A DNA stretch of 32,444 bases from positions 1 to 32,444 of IMG/VR virus record IMGVR_UViG_2859821903_000002, one strand, 5' to 3'. This stretch comes from a virus (Duplodnaviria; Heunggongvirae; Uroviricota; Caudoviricetes). Each line of letters starts with the position of its first letter. Position 1 is the stretch's first letter. A program made the position numbers. Shown here piece after piece: positions 6,001-12,000 of the stretch.

Positions 6001-9000
6001 CGAAACGGTGGAGGTGGATGAGGTTCCTGTTTACCGGCAGAAAAAATCAGAGCAGGAGGATAAACCCCGTCGCCGTGAGGCGGCTGCAATACCACAGCCG
6101 GACGAAAACAATCCGGAGATGCCACCGCCCGCGGTGATGTCTCATGGTATTGAATATATGGAGGATGGTCTTCCCGATCCGGTGAAAGCTATGGGGCAGA
6201 TCCTGGTGGAAAACCTCAGCATTGATCCGAAACTGGCACTGGATGCGGCCTGGCGACTGGCGCAGTTCACACACCATAAAAAAGGCGATGCCGGTAAAAA
6301 ATCGGCAAAAGGTGATGCCGCGAAAAAAGCGGCTAACCGTTTTGCGGTACCACCACCACGACTGGTGGTGAATAACGATAATGAGGGCAACGGATGATAC
6401 CTGTATGGAGCACGGCCTGCCCGGACTGGGCAGAGCGCCTGAAAAAGGGGCTGTCGATTATTCCGGCTCCGATTTATCCGGACCAGGCCGCACATGCCCT
6501 GGCGATTTTTAAACAACTGCGGATTGTGGATGCACCGGGTAGCCCGACGTTCGGGGAGTCCTGTGCACAGTGGGTGTTTGACCTAGTGGCGGCTCTGTTT
6601 GGCTCCTACGATGCGCAGACCGGTGTCCGCCATATCAAGGAAGTGTTCATTCTGATACCCAAAAAAAACAGCAAGTCCACACTGGCCGCCGGGATCATGA
6701 TGACGGCGCTGTTACTGAACTGGCGGCAGGCGGCGGGTTACACGATTCTGGCCCCGACTGTGGAGGTGGCAGCCAACGCCTTCAATCCTGCCAGGGATAT
6801 GGTACGACGGGACGATGATCTGGATGACCTCTGTCAGGTGCAGACACATATCCGGACCATCACCCACCGGGTGACGGACACCACCCTGAAGGTGGTGGCA
6901 GCCGATCCGAATACGGTGTCCGGTATCAAGTCCGTGGGGACGCTGATTGATGAGTTGTGGCTGTTTGGCAAGCAGTACAAGGCGGAGGACATGTTACGTG
7001 AAGCCATCGGCGGGCTTGCCTCCCGCCCGGAAGGGTTTGTGGTGTATACGACCACCCAGTCGAATGAACCGCCCGCCGGGGTGTTCAGACAAAAACTGCA
7101 GTACGCCCGGGATGTGCGCGACGGCAAAATTAATGATCCGCACTTTCTGCCGGTGATATTTGAACACCCTCCTGAAATGGTGGAAAGCGGGGCTCACCTG
7201 CTGATGGAAAACCTCGCCATGGTCAATCCGAATCTCGGCTATTCAGTGGATGAGGCCTTTCTGTACCGGGAGTACCGTAAAGCCCGGGAAGCCGGTGAAG
7301 AGACATTCCGGGGGTTCATGTCAAAACACGCCAATGTGGAAATTGGTCTTGCCCTGCGCTCTGACCGCTGGGCGGGGGCTGATTTCTGGGAAGAGCAGGG
7401 CCGTTGTATCAACCTGGACGATATCCTGCGTCGTGCTGATGTGGTGACGGTGGGGATTGACGGCGGAGGGCTGGATGATCTGCTGGGGATGTATGTGATT
7501 GGGCGTGACCGGGAGACCCGCGAATGGCTGGGCTGGGGCCATGCCTGGGCGCATGAAACCGCGGTGGTCCGACGGAAGAGCGAGGCGTCCCGGTTTCAGG
7601 ATCTTGTTGCCTGTGGAGATATGACCATTGTCCGGCGTGTCGGGGATGACACGGCGGAAGTGGCGGAATATGTGCGTCGCATTCATGAGGCTGAGTTACT
7701 GGACCATATCGGTATTGACCCGTCAGGGGGGGGCAGATTCTGGATTCACTGGCGGAAGCCGGGATCCCCGACGGAATTGTGGTGGGGATAAGCCAGGGCT
7801 GGAAACTGGGCGGGGCCATTAAAACCACCGAGCGCAAACTGGCTGAAGGGGTGCTGGTGCATGGTGACCAGCCCCTGATGGCCTGGTGTGTCGGCAATGC
7901 CCGGGTGGAGCCTAAAGGTAACGCCATTCTTATCACCAAACAGGCCAGTGGACGGGGAAAAATTGACCCGCTGATGGCGCTGTTCAATGCGGTCTCCCTG
8001 ATGTCCCTTAACCCGGAACCGAAAAAGAAAGAATATGCGGTTTTTTTCATATAACCCTGTTCACACTGTAACCATCACGAACCGCTCCGGCGGTTTTTTT
8101 ATTTTCAGGAGGCTGATGTGACTCTTAAACGGGCCTGTTCCCTGCTGACGGTGAAATCCTTCAGTGAGGATGAACGGGGGATCACCGGGATTGCGTCAAC
8201 GCCTTCTCCGGATCGGGATGGTGACATCCTGGAGCCGGAGGGCGCGGAGTTTGGCAGTGCGATCCCGTTTCTCTGGCAGCATGACCATTCCCGCCCGGTG
8301 GGGCAGTGTACGGTGCGCCGGGTCAGCGAAGGGCTGGAAATCACGGCAACACTGGTGAAGCCCGTACCGGATATGCCGTCGCAACTGGCTGCCCGGCTGG
8401 ATGAGGTCTGGGCGGCCATTAAGACCGGGCTGGTCAGGGGGCTGTCCGTGGGCTTCCGTCCCCATGAATACACCTTTCTGGACGGAGGCGGACTGCATTT
8501 TCTGCGCTGGGAACTGATGGAGGTGTCTGCCGTCACCGTGCCCGCGAATGCGGAATGCACCATCCGGACCATTAAATCTTACGACCGCCCGTTTTCTGCC
8601 GCGTCCGGCAACCGGAAACCGGTGGTGAAAATCGCATCTTCTGCCGGCGCTGCGGCACAGTCAACAACCGTTTTTCATAAGGAAAAGACCATAATGAATA
8701 TTGGCGAACAGATTAAAAGTTTTGAAAACAAGCGTGTAGCGCTGGCAGCCTCCCTTGAGGAGGTCATGACCAAAGCCGCAGAGGAAGGGCGCACGCTGGA
8801 TGTGGAGGAGGAAGAGCATTACGACAACACCGCAGCGGAAATCCGTCAGGTGGATGCGCACCTGAAGCGCCTGCGTGAACTGGAAGCCGGTAAGGCCGCC
8901 ACGGCGCAGCCGGTGAAACAGGCCGGTAACGGGAATGTGGCCGCGGTGGCTTCTGCGCCGGTGATCCGTGTGGAGCAGAAACTGGATAAGGGGATTGGCT

Positions 9001-12000
9001 TCGCCCGCTTTGCCAAATCGCTGGCTGCGGCTAAAGGCGTCCGATCTGAAGCCCTGGAAGTGGCCCGTCGTCAGTATCCGGATGACAGTCGTCTGCATCA
9101 TGTCCTGAAATCGGCAGTGGGCGCGGGGACCACCACGGATCCGCAGTGGGCAGGCAGCCTGTCTGAATATCAGGAATACGCACAGGACTTTATTGATTAC
9201 CTGCGTCCGCAGACCATTATCGGGCGATTTGGTCAGGGCGGGATCCCTGCACTTCGTCAGGTGCCGTTCAATATCCGTGTGCACGCCCAGGTGTCCGGCG
9301 GTGCTGCCGGCTGGGTGGGTGAGGGTAAGGCAAAACCCCTGACGAAGTTTGATTTTGAATCCATCACCTTCAGTCATGCGAAGGTGTCGGCCATTGCGGT
9401 ACTGACGGAAGAGCTGATCCGTTTTTCCAGTCCGGCAGCTGATGCGCTGGTCCGTAATGCGCTGGCAGAAGCGGTGGTGGCGCGTCTGGACACAGACTTT
9501 GTGGACCCGAAAAAAGCCGCAGTGGCAGATGTCTCCCCGGCGTCCATCACCCATGATGTGAAGGGCAAGGCATCAACCGGTAACCCGGATGCGGATGCAG
9601 AGGCGGCGTTTGGACAGTTTGTGGCAGCAAACCTGCAGCCCACCGGTGCGGTCTGGCTGATGTCCAGCACCAATGCCCTGGCGCTGTCCATGCGTAAAAA
9701 TACGCTGGGTCAGAAGGAATACCCGGACATGACCCTGCTGGGGGGACCTTCCAGGGGCTGCCGGTGATTGTCTCCCAGTACGTGGGTGACCAGCTGGTGC
9801 TGGTGAATGCCCCGGATATTTATCTGGCGGATGACGGCGGCGTGGCAGTGGATATGTCCCGCGAGGCATCACTGGAAATGCAGTCTGAGCCGACCGGCGA
9901 CAGTACCACGCCGTCGCCGGTGGAGCTGGTTTCCATGTTCCAGACAGGCAGTGTGGCCATCCGTGCGGAGCGCTGGATCAACTGGCGTCGTCGCCGTACC
10001 GCGGCGGTGGCGGTGATCACCGGTGTGAACTACGGCAGTGCGTCCGGCGGCTGAGTCTGATAAGGAGGACGGGAGGCGTGCGCCTCCCGTAACAGGTTAT
10101 GGCAAAGATCCGATATCTGCAGGGCACGCATGATGCCCGGGCCGGGGATATCCGTGATGTGGCACAGCCGTGCGTGGAGGTGCTGGTTCGCCTGGGAAAG
10201 GCGGAGTACATCACGGTGCGACGTCCGGCAGGTCAGAAAAAGAAACGTGATGCGGAGCATGGCGAATGTGGAACCTTTTACAGCGAACCCGAAAAAACCA
10301 GAAATTAGGACGTGACGTAAGAGAGGCGGGCTGGACCAGCCTGTTTCAGGCGGTGGCTGAGCCCTTTTCCGGCGCCTGGCAGCAGGGCGTGAAAGCCGAT
10401 CCGGAAGCCGTCCTCTCCTTTCATGCGGTGTTTTCGTGCATTTCGCTGATATCCCAGGATATCGCCAAAATGCGGCTGCGTCTTATGCAGACGGATGCGC
10501 AGGGGATACGCAGGGAAACTCGCCGGGGGGATATTGCCCGCCTCTGTCGTCGTCCCAACGCCCAGCAGAACCGCATCCAGTTTTTTGAACTGTGGCTGAA
10601 CGCCAAACTGCGTCACGGCAATACGGTGGTGCTGAAAATCCGTAACTCCCGGGGGCAGATCAAAGAACTGCGCATTCTGGACTGGAGCCGGGTTGAACCA
10701 CTGGTGGCGGATGACGGCGAAGTGTTCTACCGCATCACGCCGGACCGGAACTGCGGGATCACTGAGGCGGTGACGGTGCCTGCCCGGGAAGTGATCCACG
10801 ACCGGTTTAACTGTTTTTTTCATCCGCTTATAGGGTTGCCGCCGGTGTATGCCGCCGGGCTGGCCGCCACGCAGGGGCATCATATTCAGGAAAATTCGAC
10901 GTATTTTTTCAGAAATGGCGGCATGCCGTCCGGGGTGATTGAGATCCCCGGCAGTATTACGGAAGAAAATGCGAAAAAACTGAAGAGCAACTGGGACAGC
11001 GGGTATACCGGCGAAAATGCGGGGAAAACGGCCATTCTGAGCAACGGGGCAAAATACAACCCCACGACGTTTTCACCGGTGGATGCGCAGACGGTGGAAC
11101 AACTGAAGATGACCGCTGAAATTGTCTGTTCGGTGTTCCGTGTCCCGGCCTACAAGATTGGCGTGGGACAACCGCCTTCCAGTGACAACGTGGAGGCGCT
11201 GGAGCAGCAGTATTATTCCCAGTGCCTGCAGACGCTGATTGAGTCCATTGAACTGTTACTGGATGAGGCGCTGGAAACGGGGGAAAACGAGAGTACAGAA
11301 TTTGATGTCACCACGCTGCTGAGAATGGACAGTGAGCGGCGCATGAAAACGCTGAGGGATGCGGTGAAAAATACGCTTCTCACGCCCAATGAGGCCCGTA
11401 AACGGGAGAACCTGCCGCCCCTGGCCGGCGGCGATGCACTGTATCTTCAGCAGCAGAACTACAGTCTGGAGGCACTGTCCCGTCGTGATGCCCGTGAGGA
11501 TCCGTTCGCGTCGACCGGGAAAACGGCCTTAGCGCAACCGCCTGACGGCGCATCTGACGGTAATAAGGCAATCAGTGAAACAGAGCATGATGCGGTGAAA
11601 GCGATGTTCAGGGGGATTCTGAAAAAATGAATGAACGTGAACTGTCCATTATTCGTGCCCTGGGAGAAGAATTCGCCACGGTGCTGGCGGATTTACAGCG
11701 CACATTTGAGGAGAAGATGAGCGCGCAGGCACAAGCGTTTGAAGAGAAACTGGCTTCCCTGTCCGCTCTGTTACAGAAGCATGTGACGGTGGATGAGGTT
11801 AGCCCTGTTCTGCAGGCGATGGTGGATGACGCAGTGGGGGCCATTCCGCTACCGCGTGATGGTCGCGATTATGATCCGGAAGTACTGAAGCAGGCGGTGA
11901 ATGATGCGGTCGCGAAAATACCGGTGCCGGCAGACGGCAAAAGTATCACCCCGATGATGTGCGTCCGATGCTTGAGCAGATGGTGAAAGAGGCTGTAAGC

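What the first reader, a model, noticed from the sequence alone, without database searches (positions are those of the whole stretch)
8118..10054. Prohead protease, scaffold-like coiled coil and major capsid protein in one reading frame
A protease-like N-terminal domain, a charged coiled-coil segment and an HK97-fold capsid-like region share one frame (ignoring the G-run frameshift). An internal ATG with an AAGGA RBS at about 8694 (MNIGEQIKSF...) could yield a scaffold-capsid product, like the nested in-frame C/Nu3 arrangement of lambda. The gene order terminase, capsid, portal is also atypical for HK97-like modules.
Basis: partly seen in the sequence, partly recalled or inferred. Interest (0 to 1): 0.45.

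Follow-up and report, generated by a model that had tools for sequence, protein, structure and literature searches.

The report
Fused protease-capsid gene, broken by frameshift
This is the well-known fused head-protease/major-capsid gene of long-tailed Shiga-toxin-type prophages, inactivated here by a one-base deletion; comparison with relatives indicates that intact copies also make the capsid protein on its own from a conserved start codon inside the gene.

Summary
Window 8118-10054 is one gene split by a one-base deletion in a G-run (G6 at 9740-9745; close relatives have G7). The repaired 645-aa product has four parts:
- an HK97 gp4-type S78 prohead protease (aa ~20-152; His55 and Ser110 invariant);
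- a disordered linker (156-189);
- a two-helix delta/scaffold domain (195-262);
- an HK97-fold capsid domain (293-645).

The gene is 98-99% identical to single CDSs already annotated as 'major head protein/prohead protease' in viable Stx phages (2851, phi330, BP-4795). It is homologous along its whole length to Pseudomonas phage PAJU2 ORF003, annotated 'prohead protease fused capsid protein'. The fusion is therefore already known.

This copy is a pseudogene in a decayed, IS-ridden prophage. The same truncated ORF occurs in independent assemblies, so the frameshift is not a sequencing error.

- unfused relatives start their capsid gene exactly at Met193;
- 142 of 145 fused 50%-identity clusters keep Met or Val there;
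- all 22 fused loci examined have a Shine-Dalgarno-like purine tract 10-15 nt upstream;
- the surrounding RNA is the least structured, most AT-rich part of the gene.

No record I inspected annotates this nested product.

The parts
8079..8105 (+). Terminator-like hairpin plus T-run between the TerL stop and the capsid gene
   Evidence: The consensus scan found a single site, stem 8079-8096 followed by TTTTATTTTC. Function was not tested. HK97 has an annotated putative terminator just before its protease gene.
8107..8112 (+). Shine-Dalgarno sequence AGGAGG of the full-length ORF, 5 nt before the GTG start
   Evidence: Read directly from the sequence. Homologous loci have (A/T)GGAG(G) at the same place before an ATG start.
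8118..9767 (+). Frame-0 part of the fused gene: 549 codons ending at a premature TGA created by the frameshift
   Evidence: ORF list. This exact 549-aa product is also encoded in CP026839.1 and in independent Logan assemblies.
8175..8573 (+). S78 (HK97 gp4-like) prohead serine protease domain, aa ~20-152; catalytic His55 is codon 8280-8282 and Ser110 is codon 8445-8447
   Evidence: Pfam PF04586. BLASTP to HK97 gp4 gives 29% identity, E 6e-8, and aligns GMSVGF with GLSVGF. H55 and S110 are invariant in 90 sequences of 36-77% identity. AlphaFold pLDDT is above 90.
8583..8693 (+). Variable, disordered linker (aa ~156-192) whose 3' end carries the internal ribosome-binding region
   Evidence: pLDDT is below 50 for aa 156-189. 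Sequence and length vary among homologues.
8679..8683 (+). Internal Shine-Dalgarno-like AAGGA, 10 nt before ATG 8694
   Evidence: All 22 distinct fused loci have AAGG/AGGA/GGAG/GAGG starting 10-15 nt upstream of the ATG, and positions -12 to -8 are almost exclusively purines. Predicted anti-SD duplex energies are -4.3 to -10.8 kcal/mol.
8694..8696 (+). Internal in-frame ATG (Met193), the proposed start of the nested delta-capsid product (453 aa in intact relatives)
   Evidence: The ATG is invariant in 22 loci. M (130) or V (12) is present in 142 of 145 fused clusters. Unfused capsid proteins begin at this residue. This is the least structured, most AT-rich 60 nt of the gene.
8700..8903 (+). 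Delta (scaffold-like) domain: two long charged helices, aa 195-223 and 229-262
   Evidence: AlphaFold pLDDT ~97. The profile matches residues 4-73 of the cf-PICI EcCI2 major head protein 9gyi (E 9e-10).
8994..10054 (+). HK97-fold major capsid domain (aa ~293-645 of the repaired protein), interrupted by the frameshift
   Evidence: Pfam PF05065. Profile hits to solved capsid proteins 9d9w, 8gta, 5tjt and 6tb9. Foldseek hits to Bxb1, HK97 1ohg/8cfa, D3 and T5 capsids, probability 1.00.
9740..9745 (+). G6 run: the site of the one-base deletion that breaks the gene
   Evidence: The alignment to L001 shows G7 there; phage 2851 has GGGTGGCT at this site. All of the top 40 megablast hits span 1962 nt against 1961 nt in the window.
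9764..10054 (+). C-terminal 96 codons of the capsid domain, now in the -1 frame; not an independent gene
   Evidence: ORF list. The repaired translation matches homologues through to the stop.

Best explanation
Window 8118-10054 is the head-assembly gene of a Pankowvirus-type (Stx-phage-like) lambdoid prophage. It is a natural in-frame fusion of an HK97 gp4-type S78 prohead protease with an HK97-type major capsid protein that keeps its N-terminal delta (scaffold) domain.

Proposed mechanism in intact relatives:
- One mRNA is most likely read from two starts. The 5' start gives protease-linker-delta-capsid (645 aa). The conserved internal SD+ATG at codon 193 gives delta-capsid (453 aa).
- Both products co-assemble through their capsid domains. 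A fraction of shell subunits therefore carries a covalently tethered protease into the prohead interior.
- The protease then removes itself, the linker and the delta domains, leaving the mature shell.

In this window the gene is dead. A one-base deletion in a G-run truncates the capsid domain after residue 541. The large terminase (TerL), portal, tape-measure and tail-tip (gpJ-like) genes are also broken, and IS elements are inserted.

Shown here by computation: domain architecture, catalytic residues, fold, the frameshift, and conservation of the internal start signals. Inferred: that two products are made, how they assemble, and the cleavage order.
For: Architecture:
- Pfam S78 and Phage_capsid hits.
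- HK97 gp4 BLASTP match, E 6e-8.
- H55 and S110 invariant in 90 sequences.
- AlphaFold pLDDT 86, giving protease 20-152, disordered 156-189, helices 195-262 and capsid 293-645.
- Foldseek hits to the HK97, Bxb1, D3 and T5 capsids.

The fusion is real and functional in relatives:
- Single annotated CDS in phage 2851 and in many Stx phages.
- PAJU2 ORF003 is annotated 'prohead protease fused capsid protein'.
- phi330, whose gene is 98.8% identical, forms plaques and 55-nm heads (PMC12502783).
- 145 of the best 151 clusters at 50% identity are fused.

Nested start:
- Unfused capsid proteins begin at query residue 193.
- The junction residue is M in 130 and V in 12 of 145 fused clusters, with essentially no L or I.
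- SD-encoding dipeptides occur upstream in 53% of clusters against 7.7% of background windows.
- An SD-like tetramer and a purine tract are present in 22 of 22 loci although the linker residues differ.
- Predicted fold energy around the ATG is -0 to -8 kcal/mol against a gene mean of -11 to -18. This is the extreme of the gene in most loci.

Pseudogene status:
- G6 here against G7 in relatives.
- The identical truncated ORF occurs in independent assemblies.
- Other late genes carry frameshifts and there are IS1, IS3-family and IS66 insertions.
Against: - There are no protein or ribosome-profiling data for any member. Every record I inspected annotates a single product.
- Individually, the internal SDs are only moderate: about the top 10% of in-frame positions in each gene. 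In the window the spacing to the ATG is rather long (10 nt).
- Fused and unfused forms are interspersed among relatives of similar distance. Some start signals could therefore be relics of recent fusions rather than selected features.
- The list of the top 150 clusters is biased towards fused proteins, because they match the query over both domains.
- The lysine- and asparagine-rich linker would be A-rich and poorly structured for coding reasons alone.
Confidence: 0.8

Rival explanations
1. Single polyprotein only. Every capsid subunit is made as the full 645-aa protease-delta-capsid chain and frees itself by autocatalytic cleavage. The internal ATG and AAGGA are silent relics of the ancestral separate capsid gene.
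For: This is what was proposed for PAJU2 ('capsid polyprotein ... autocatalytically cleaved'), as summarised in PMC8306868. Every database record inspected annotates one CDS. Individual SD strengths are unremarkable.
Against: Relics should decay, yet 142 of 145 fused clusters at 50% identity or less keep a start-capable residue. The alternatives seen are almost only V (consistent with GTG, but no DNA was available for these clusters), not the chemically closer L or I. The SD-like tract persists in 22 of 22 loci while the surrounding linker residues and linker length change. The region is the structural minimum of the mRNA.
Confidence: 0.15
2. The one-frame arrangement is an accident of this sequence: a stop codon between separate protease and capsid genes was lost by mutation in this decaying prophage.
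For: Unfused relatives with a stop, or with a 4-nt overlap, do exist. Examples are Burkholderia vB_FKKS2 and Moraxella Mcat4.
Against: Those relatives are only 35-40% identical. The fused form is found in thousands of proteins across Enterobacterales, Pseudomonas and beyond, and in plaque-forming phages.
Confidence: 0.01
3. The G-run is a programmed -1 frameshift or slippage site, so the split into 549-aa and full-length products is regulatory.
For: G GGG GGA at 9739-9745 is formally an X_XXY_YYZ heptamer in the 0 frame, and a -1 slip would restore the capsid frame (sequence).
Against: The site is not conserved. Close relatives read straight through with G7, and phage 2851 has GGGTGGCT there. 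The 0-frame product lacks the last ~100 residues of the HK97 fold. Neighbouring late genes carry similar one-base lesions.
Confidence: 0.02
4. The G6 run is a homopolymer sequencing error and the real gene is intact.
For: All six one-base differences in the late genes lie in or next to homopolymer runs.
Against: The identical 549-aa ORF is present in CP026839.1 and in separately assembled read sets SRR8186604 and DRR015991. One of these has an intact TerL, which shows the lesions were acquired stepwise. The prophage is also disrupted by IS elements.
Confidence: 0.04

Closest known systems
'Major head protein/prohead protease' of long-tailed Stx phages (Pankowvirus: phage 2851, WGPS6, phi330; also BP-4795, YYZ-2008, 1717)
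   Same: It is the same gene. DNA identity is 98-99% over all 1961 nt, and the neighbours match: HNH, TerS, TerL, fused gene, small ORF, portal.
   Different: Those copies are intact 645-codon CDSs in inducible or plaque-forming phages. The window copy lacks one G and is truncated.
Pseudomonas phage PAJU2 ORF003, 'prohead protease fused capsid protein' (UniProt 'capsid polyprotein' P85500; Uchiyama et al. 2009, as cited in PMC8306868)
   Same: Homologous along the whole length (47.5% identity, 100% coverage). It has the same Pfam pair, the same gene order, and an internal ATG preceded by GGAGGG.
   Different: The host and phage genus differ. It was described as an autocleaving polyprotein; no nested start was mentioned in the text I could read.
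HK97 gp4 (protease) and gp5 (delta-domain capsid protein)
   Same: Same protease family, with the catalytic Ser motif aligned (E 6e-8). Same capsid fold and the same use of an N-terminal helical delta domain as scaffold.
   Different: In HK97 these are two genes separated by a stop, placed after the portal gene. The gp4 alignment ends at residue 162 of 225, leaving a C-terminal tail of about 60 residues with no counterpart here, where a ~36-residue disordered linker joins directly to the capsid protein. gp5 is not detectably similar to the capsid domain by BLASTP (E 3.4).
Gifsy-2 'tripartite capsid gene' (Effantin et al. 2010, Virology 402:355; cited in PMC12315714 and PMC8538268)
   Same: Protease, a central scaffold-like segment and the capsid protein lie in one ORF of about 650-700 codons.
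   Different: It is an independent fusion: CLP_protease plus Phage_capsid_4 rather than S78 plus Phage_capsid. There is no sequence similarity (E 0.15), and the gene follows the portal gene as in lambda.
Nested in-frame protease/scaffold genes: lambda C/Nu3, HSV-1 UL26/UL26.5, HFTV1 gp17/gp17.5 (bioRxiv 10.64898/2026.09.13.751334)
   Same: An internal in-frame start gives an abundant assembly protein that is co-terminal with a rarer, protease-bearing full-length product. This is the logic proposed here.
   Different: In those systems the nested product is a separate scaffold. Here it would be the capsid protein itself with its built-in scaffold domain. Expression of two products has been shown for those systems but not for this family.

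Membership tests
Peptidase S78 (HK97 gp4-like prohead protease) | Sequence match to the family model above its curated threshold | tested here: met
   PF04586 scores 34.8 bits against a cut-off of 21, at aa 48-152. BLASTP to HK97 gp4 gives E 6e-8.
Peptidase S78 (HK97 gp4-like prohead protease) | Catalytic His and Ser present. That these are His65 and Ser114 in HK97 gp4 is from my own knowledge of the Duda et al. 2013 work, not checked here. | tested here: met
   GLS110VGF aligns with GMS114VGF of gp4. His55 in WQHD lies one position from gp4 His65 in the BLASTP alignment. H55 and S110 are two of only eight invariant columns in 90 sequences.
Peptidase S78 (HK97 gp4-like prohead protease) | Proteolytic activity on capsid precursors | not testable with these tools
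   Needs biochemistry.
HK97-fold major capsid protein with delta domain (Pfam Phage_capsid) | Family model match and HK97 fold | tested here: met
   PF05065 scores 50.2 bits against a cut-off of 24.2. The profile hits solved capsid proteins. Foldseek gives probability 1.00 to HK97, Bxb1, D3 and T5, with target-normalised TM-scores up to 0.75. The model was built on the intact homologue P0002.
HK97-fold major capsid protein with delta domain (Pfam Phage_capsid) | N-terminal helical delta/scaffold domain | tested here: met
   Helices 195-223 and 229-262 at pLDDT ~97. This segment matches the N-terminal 70 residues of the 9gyi major head protein.
HK97-fold major capsid protein with delta domain (Pfam Phage_capsid) | Uninterrupted reading frame in this window | tested here: not met
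   The G6 run at 9740-9745 shifts the frame and a stop follows at 9765-9767.
S78-capsid fusion ('capsid polyprotein', PAJU2 ORF003 type) | Both domains in one ORF and full-length homology to described members | tested here: met
   47.5% identity over 100% of PAJU2 ORF003, which carries the same Pfam pair. 98-99% DNA identity to the Stx-phage genes.
Nested in-frame protease/assembly-protein genes (lambda C/Nu3 type) | Internal in-frame start codon with a ribosome-binding site | tested here: met
   ATG 8694 with AAGGA upstream. Start codon, SD-like tract and open RNA context are conserved across the family.
Nested in-frame protease/assembly-protein genes (lambda C/Nu3 type) | Two co-terminal protein products demonstrated | not testable with these tools
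   No proteomic or ribosome-profiling data were found. The phi330 virion mass spectrometry was not reported for this protein.
Nested in-frame protease/assembly-protein genes (lambda C/Nu3 type) | The nested product is a free scaffolding protein | tested here: not met
   The nested ORF runs through the delta domain into the capsid domain.
Gifsy-2-type tripartite capsid gene | ClpP-family protease domain and homology to the Gifsy-2 gene | tested here: not met
   The Gifsy-2 gene carries CLP_protease and Phage_capsid_4. BLASTP against P0002 gives E 0.15.

The most novel reading that the evidence does not exclude
Across this large family of S78-capsid fusion genes, the protease would be delivered into the prohead as a minority capsid subunit with the protease covalently attached. 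Its dose would be set by competition between two translation starts on one ORF: the 5' start and the conserved internal SD+ATG/GTG. This would be a third kind of nested head-assembly gene, beside lambda C/Nu3 and herpesvirus UL26/UL26.5, in which the nested product is the capsid protein itself. The nested product is missing from every annotation I inspected.
Probability: 0.55. Interest if true: 0.45.

Novelty: already known. Interest (0 to 1): 0.3.

Why it matters
For this window, very little. It is a dead copy of a common, already annotated prophage head gene. Its frameshift, together with the other broken late genes and the IS insertions, marks the prophage as cryptic.

For the gene family, the comparative result is useful. 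Thousands of 'major capsid protein' entries probably hide a second, unannotated product starting at the conserved internal Met. That start offers a simple explanation of how a fused protease-capsid gene avoids placing one protease on every one of the roughly 400 shell subunits.

The idea can be tested directly in culturable phages such as 2851, phi330 or PAJU2. It would also matter for annotation and for engineering HK97-type capsids that carry internal cargo.

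Tried and rejected
- AlphaFold with the 17-sequence, 73-77%-identity alignment gave an unusable model (pLDDT 41). A 90-sequence diverse alignment fixed this.
- A single-sequence search of PDB sequences gave only marginal hits (E 0.009). A profile was needed.
- BLASTP of the capsid part against HK97 gp5 is not significant (E 3.4), so homology to gp5 rests on Pfam and on fold.
- The Effantin 2010 Gifsy-2 paper could not be read. I used citations of it and analysed the Gifsy-2 record directly.
- Literature searches for 'protease-capsid fusion' phrases and for a described internal start in such fusions found nothing specific. 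Two leads were irrelevant: the CBASS preprint concerns protease-scaffold fusions, and the CapRel paper is unrelated.
- The phi330 paper's supplement has peptide maps only for the short-tailed phages.
- Programmed frameshifting at the G-run was considered and rejected because the run is not conserved.
- Sequencing error was considered and judged unlikely because independent assemblies share the lesion.
- No sigma-70-like promoter was found inside the gene, so a separate internal transcript is not indicated.

Full report
**1. What is in the sequence**

The window holds a GTG-initiated ORF at 8118..9767 (549 aa), followed by a 96-codon ORF at 9764..10054 in the -1 frame. The only G6 run in the gene is at 9740-9745. 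Adding one G there joins the two ORFs into a 645-aa protein. That protein is 98% identical over its whole length to P0002, a 645-aa protein cluster with 9916 member sequences.

Megablast of 8100-10060 finds 93 phage records and 1252 of 5426 complete E. coli genomes. All of the top 40 hits span 1962 nt where the window has 1961. Direct alignment shows G7 in the closest E. coli relative and GGGTGGCT in phage 2851 at this spot. The window therefore lacks one base, and the G-run itself is not a conserved element.

**2. Is the frameshift real?**

The exact 549-aa truncated protein is encoded in chromosome CP026839.1. Window 5118-12767 is 100% identical to that record, so it is evidently the source. 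The same protein is also encoded in separately assembled read sets SRR8186604 and DRR015991. One of those assemblies still has an intact large terminase, so the lesions accumulated stepwise in a lineage. A sequencing error is unlikely.

The prophage is decayed in many other ways:
- TerL is split at 7730.
- The portal gene is split into four pieces. Phage 2851 has one 859-aa CDS there.
- There is a further one-base lesion at 13876.
- IS1, an IS3-family element and IS66 are inserted, and the tape-measure and tail-tip (gpJ-like) genes are fragmented.

This copy is a pseudogene. Its 0-frame product ends after residue 541 and lacks the last ~100 residues, which form core strands of the capsid fold.

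**3. Domain architecture**

Pfam places Peptidase_S78 at aa 48-152 and Phage_capsid at aa 386-635, both above their gathering scores. HK97 gp4 aligns to aa 12-156 at 29% identity (E 6e-8), with GMS114VGF matching GLS110VGF. In a 90-sequence alignment spanning 36-77% identity, only eight columns are invariant. They include His55 and Ser110.

An AlphaFold model built on that alignment (mean pLDDT 86) gives the following layout:

| Residues | Feature |
|---|---|
| 20-152 | beta-rich protease |
| 156-189 | disordered linker |
| 195-223, 229-262 | two long helices |
| ~263-290 | second low-confidence segment |
| 293-645 | compact capsid domain |

Foldseek matches the C-terminal domain to the Bxb1, HK97, D3, T5 and GTA capsid proteins at probability 1.00. 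A sequence profile of the family hits solved capsid proteins. Its helical segment hits the N-terminal 70 residues of the cf-PICI EcCI2 head protein.

**4. The fusion is old, widespread and already annotated**

- Phage 2851 annotates one 1938-nt CDS.
- Other Stx phages call it 'major head protein/prohead protease'.
- PMC8306868 recounts the 2009 proposal that the PAJU2 'capsid polyprotein' is a protease-capsid fusion that cleaves itself.
- phi330, whose gene is 98.8% identical, is a plaque-forming siphophage with a 55-nm head.
- In a library of 1.84 billion representatives, 1183 clusters match at E < 1e-30. Of the best 151, 145 are fused proteins of about 630-680 aa at 38-54% identity.

Relatives with separate genes exist at 35-40% identity: Burkholderia vB_FKKS2 (13-nt spacer) and Moraxella Mcat4 (4-nt overlap). 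They have the same TerL-protease-capsid-small ORF-portal order. The atypical order is thus a property of the module, not of this locus. HK97 and Gifsy-2 both put the portal gene first.

**5. The internal start**

This is the part of the finding that goes beyond annotation.

*a. Ancestral start.* The capsid proteins of the unfused relatives align from their residue 1 to residue 193 of the fused protein. Five unfused representatives (P0198, P0229, P0257, P0262, P0266) also begin at query residues 193-196. Met193 is therefore the ancestral capsid start.

*b. Start-capable residue retained.* Of 145 fused representatives that are at most 50% identical to one another, 142 keep M (130) or V (12) at the junction. 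L, I and T are essentially absent, although L and I are the chemically favoured replacements for an internal Met. ATG and GTG are the two commonest bacterial start codons. No DNA was available for these clusters, so I could not check whether the V codons are GTG.

*c. SD footprint in the protein.* Residues -5 to -3 are enriched for K, K/E/G and G/E. Dipeptides that force AAGG, AGGA or GAGG in the mRNA occur in 53% of fused proteins there, against 7.7% of other windows.

*d. SD-like tract in the DNA.* All 22 distinct fused loci fetched have AAGG/AGGA/GGAG/GAGG starting 10-15 nt upstream of the ATG. Positions -12 to -8 are almost exclusively purine. Meanwhile the encoded linker residues vary (KEK, KGN, KGK, QEG, TGN, QEV and others) and the linker changes length.

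*e. Open RNA context.* The 60 nt centred on the ATG is the least structured and most AT-rich stretch of the gene in almost every locus. In the window it folds at -5.8 kcal/mol against a gene mean of -18.4 (sd 4.5), with AT content 0.67 against 0.39.

*f. Second codon.* It is usually AAA, AAT or ACN.

Weaknesses:
- Each SD alone is only in about the top 10% of positions in its gene.
- The loci are phylogenetically related.
- A Lys/Asn-rich linker is A-rich for coding reasons.
- Fusion and fission seem to have happened more than once, so some signals could be young relics.
- No protein-level data were found.

**6. Mechanism proposed**

In intact relatives, ribosomes would initiate at two sites: the 5' start (AGGAGG, 5 nt, then GTG in the E. 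coli lineage and ATG elsewhere) and codon 193. This yields a protease-bearing capsid subunit and a plain delta-capsid subunit. Both would enter capsomers through the same capsid domain, so the protease is tethered inside the prohead.

HK97 gp4 has a C-terminal tail of about 60 residues beyond the aligned protease domain. Here only a ~36-residue disordered linker follows. This fits covalent linkage having replaced non-covalent targeting, but that is my inference. Cleavage then removes protease, linker and delta domain. The variable, low-confidence segment at aa ~262-290 is the likely cut region, also an inference.

This is the logic of lambda C/Nu3, HSV-1 UL26/UL26.5 and HFTV1 gp17/17.5. The difference is that the nested product here is the capsid protein itself.

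**7. Comparison with Gifsy-2**

The Gifsy-2 'tripartite capsid gene' (cited) is CLP_protease plus Phage_capsid_4. It shows no similarity to this protein (E 0.15) and sits after the portal gene. It is therefore an independent, convergent fusion. Its Met221, just after the protease domain, also has GAGGAG upstream and weak local structure. I did not test whether that is conserved.

**8. Verdict**

- The object is an already known, commonly annotated fusion gene, present here as a pseudogene.
- The added value is comparative evidence that the family is a nested gene with an unannotated second product.
- I put about 0.95 on the identity and pseudogene status, and about 0.75 on functional internal initiation in intact relatives.

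Noticed in passing
window 5118-12767; whole window: This stretch is 100% identical to CP026839.1 2011332-2018981 (assembly GCA_002950115.1, a 4.27-Mb chromosome), which is evidently the source.
   Followed up: partly
window 6394-8054: The large terminase is split (6394..7791 and 7779..8054) by loss of a T between two G4 runs at 7730. The Logan assembly SRR8186604 has the same broken capsid gene but an intact 553-aa TerL, so the lesions accumulated stepwise.
   Followed up: partly
window 10266-12686: The portal gene is broken into four ORFs by one-base deletions at 11611, 11953 and 12488. In phage 2851 it is a single 859-aa CDS: a ~450-aa portal domain joined to a ~400-aa C-terminal extension with no Pfam match. 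In PAJU2 the portal gene (464 aa) and the next ORF (334 aa) are separate, so this may be another gene fusion in the same module.
   Followed up: partly
window 11843-12221: The C-terminal extension of the portal gene contains about 162-nt tandem repeats that are 88-90% identical to one another. They encode DGRDYDPEVLKQAVNDAV..IP.P.DGKS.TP.DVRPMLEQMV.EAVSHIPVPR. Their function is unknown.
   Followed up: no
window 651-2723 and 16067-18364: IS1 (651..1154), an IS3-family transposase (1833..2723) and an IS66 element (16067..18364, minus strand) are inserted in the prophage. The tape-measure gene (18530..20164 and 20186..21469) and the gpJ-like tail-tip gene (24288 onwards) are fragmented.
   Followed up: partly
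window 8079-8105: A terminator-like hairpin followed by a T-run sits between the TerL stop and the capsid-gene SD. HK97 has an annotated putative terminator directly before its protease gene as well.
   Followed up: no
window 9739-9745: G GGG GGA is formally a -1 slippery heptamer in the 0 frame. Occasional slippage would restore full-length capsid protein from the pseudogene. The site is not conserved and is probably irrelevant.
   Followed up: partly
L038 (Gifsy-2, NC_010393) 22471-24561, codon 221: The Gifsy-2 Clp-protease/scaffold/capsid ORF has an in-frame ATG (Met221) just after the protease domain. It has GAGGAG upstream (-8.8 kcal/mol) and weak local RNA structure (-6.0 kcal/mol against a gene mean of -14.0). 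This is a possible nested start in the convergent fusion.
   Followed up: no
L004 (Burkholderia phage vB_FKKS2) 2535-2560: In this unfused relative the protease stop codon overlaps the capsid-gene SD as TAAGGA. The window has the same hexamer, TAAGGA (8678-8683), read in a different frame, which shows how a one-base change can switch between fused and separate genes.
   Followed up: no
proteins P0001 (1079 aa), P0123 (1094 aa), P0132 (1091 aa): Some database proteins join a TerL domain to the protease-capsid fusion in one predicted chain. These are probably read-through or frameshift artefacts of gene calling, but this was not checked.
   Followed up: no
window 10099-10308: A conserved 69-aa ORF with no Pfam match lies between the capsid and portal genes and overlaps the portal start. 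Small ORFs occupy the same position in PAJU2, Burkholderia vB_FKKS2 and Moraxella Mcat4.
   Followed up: no
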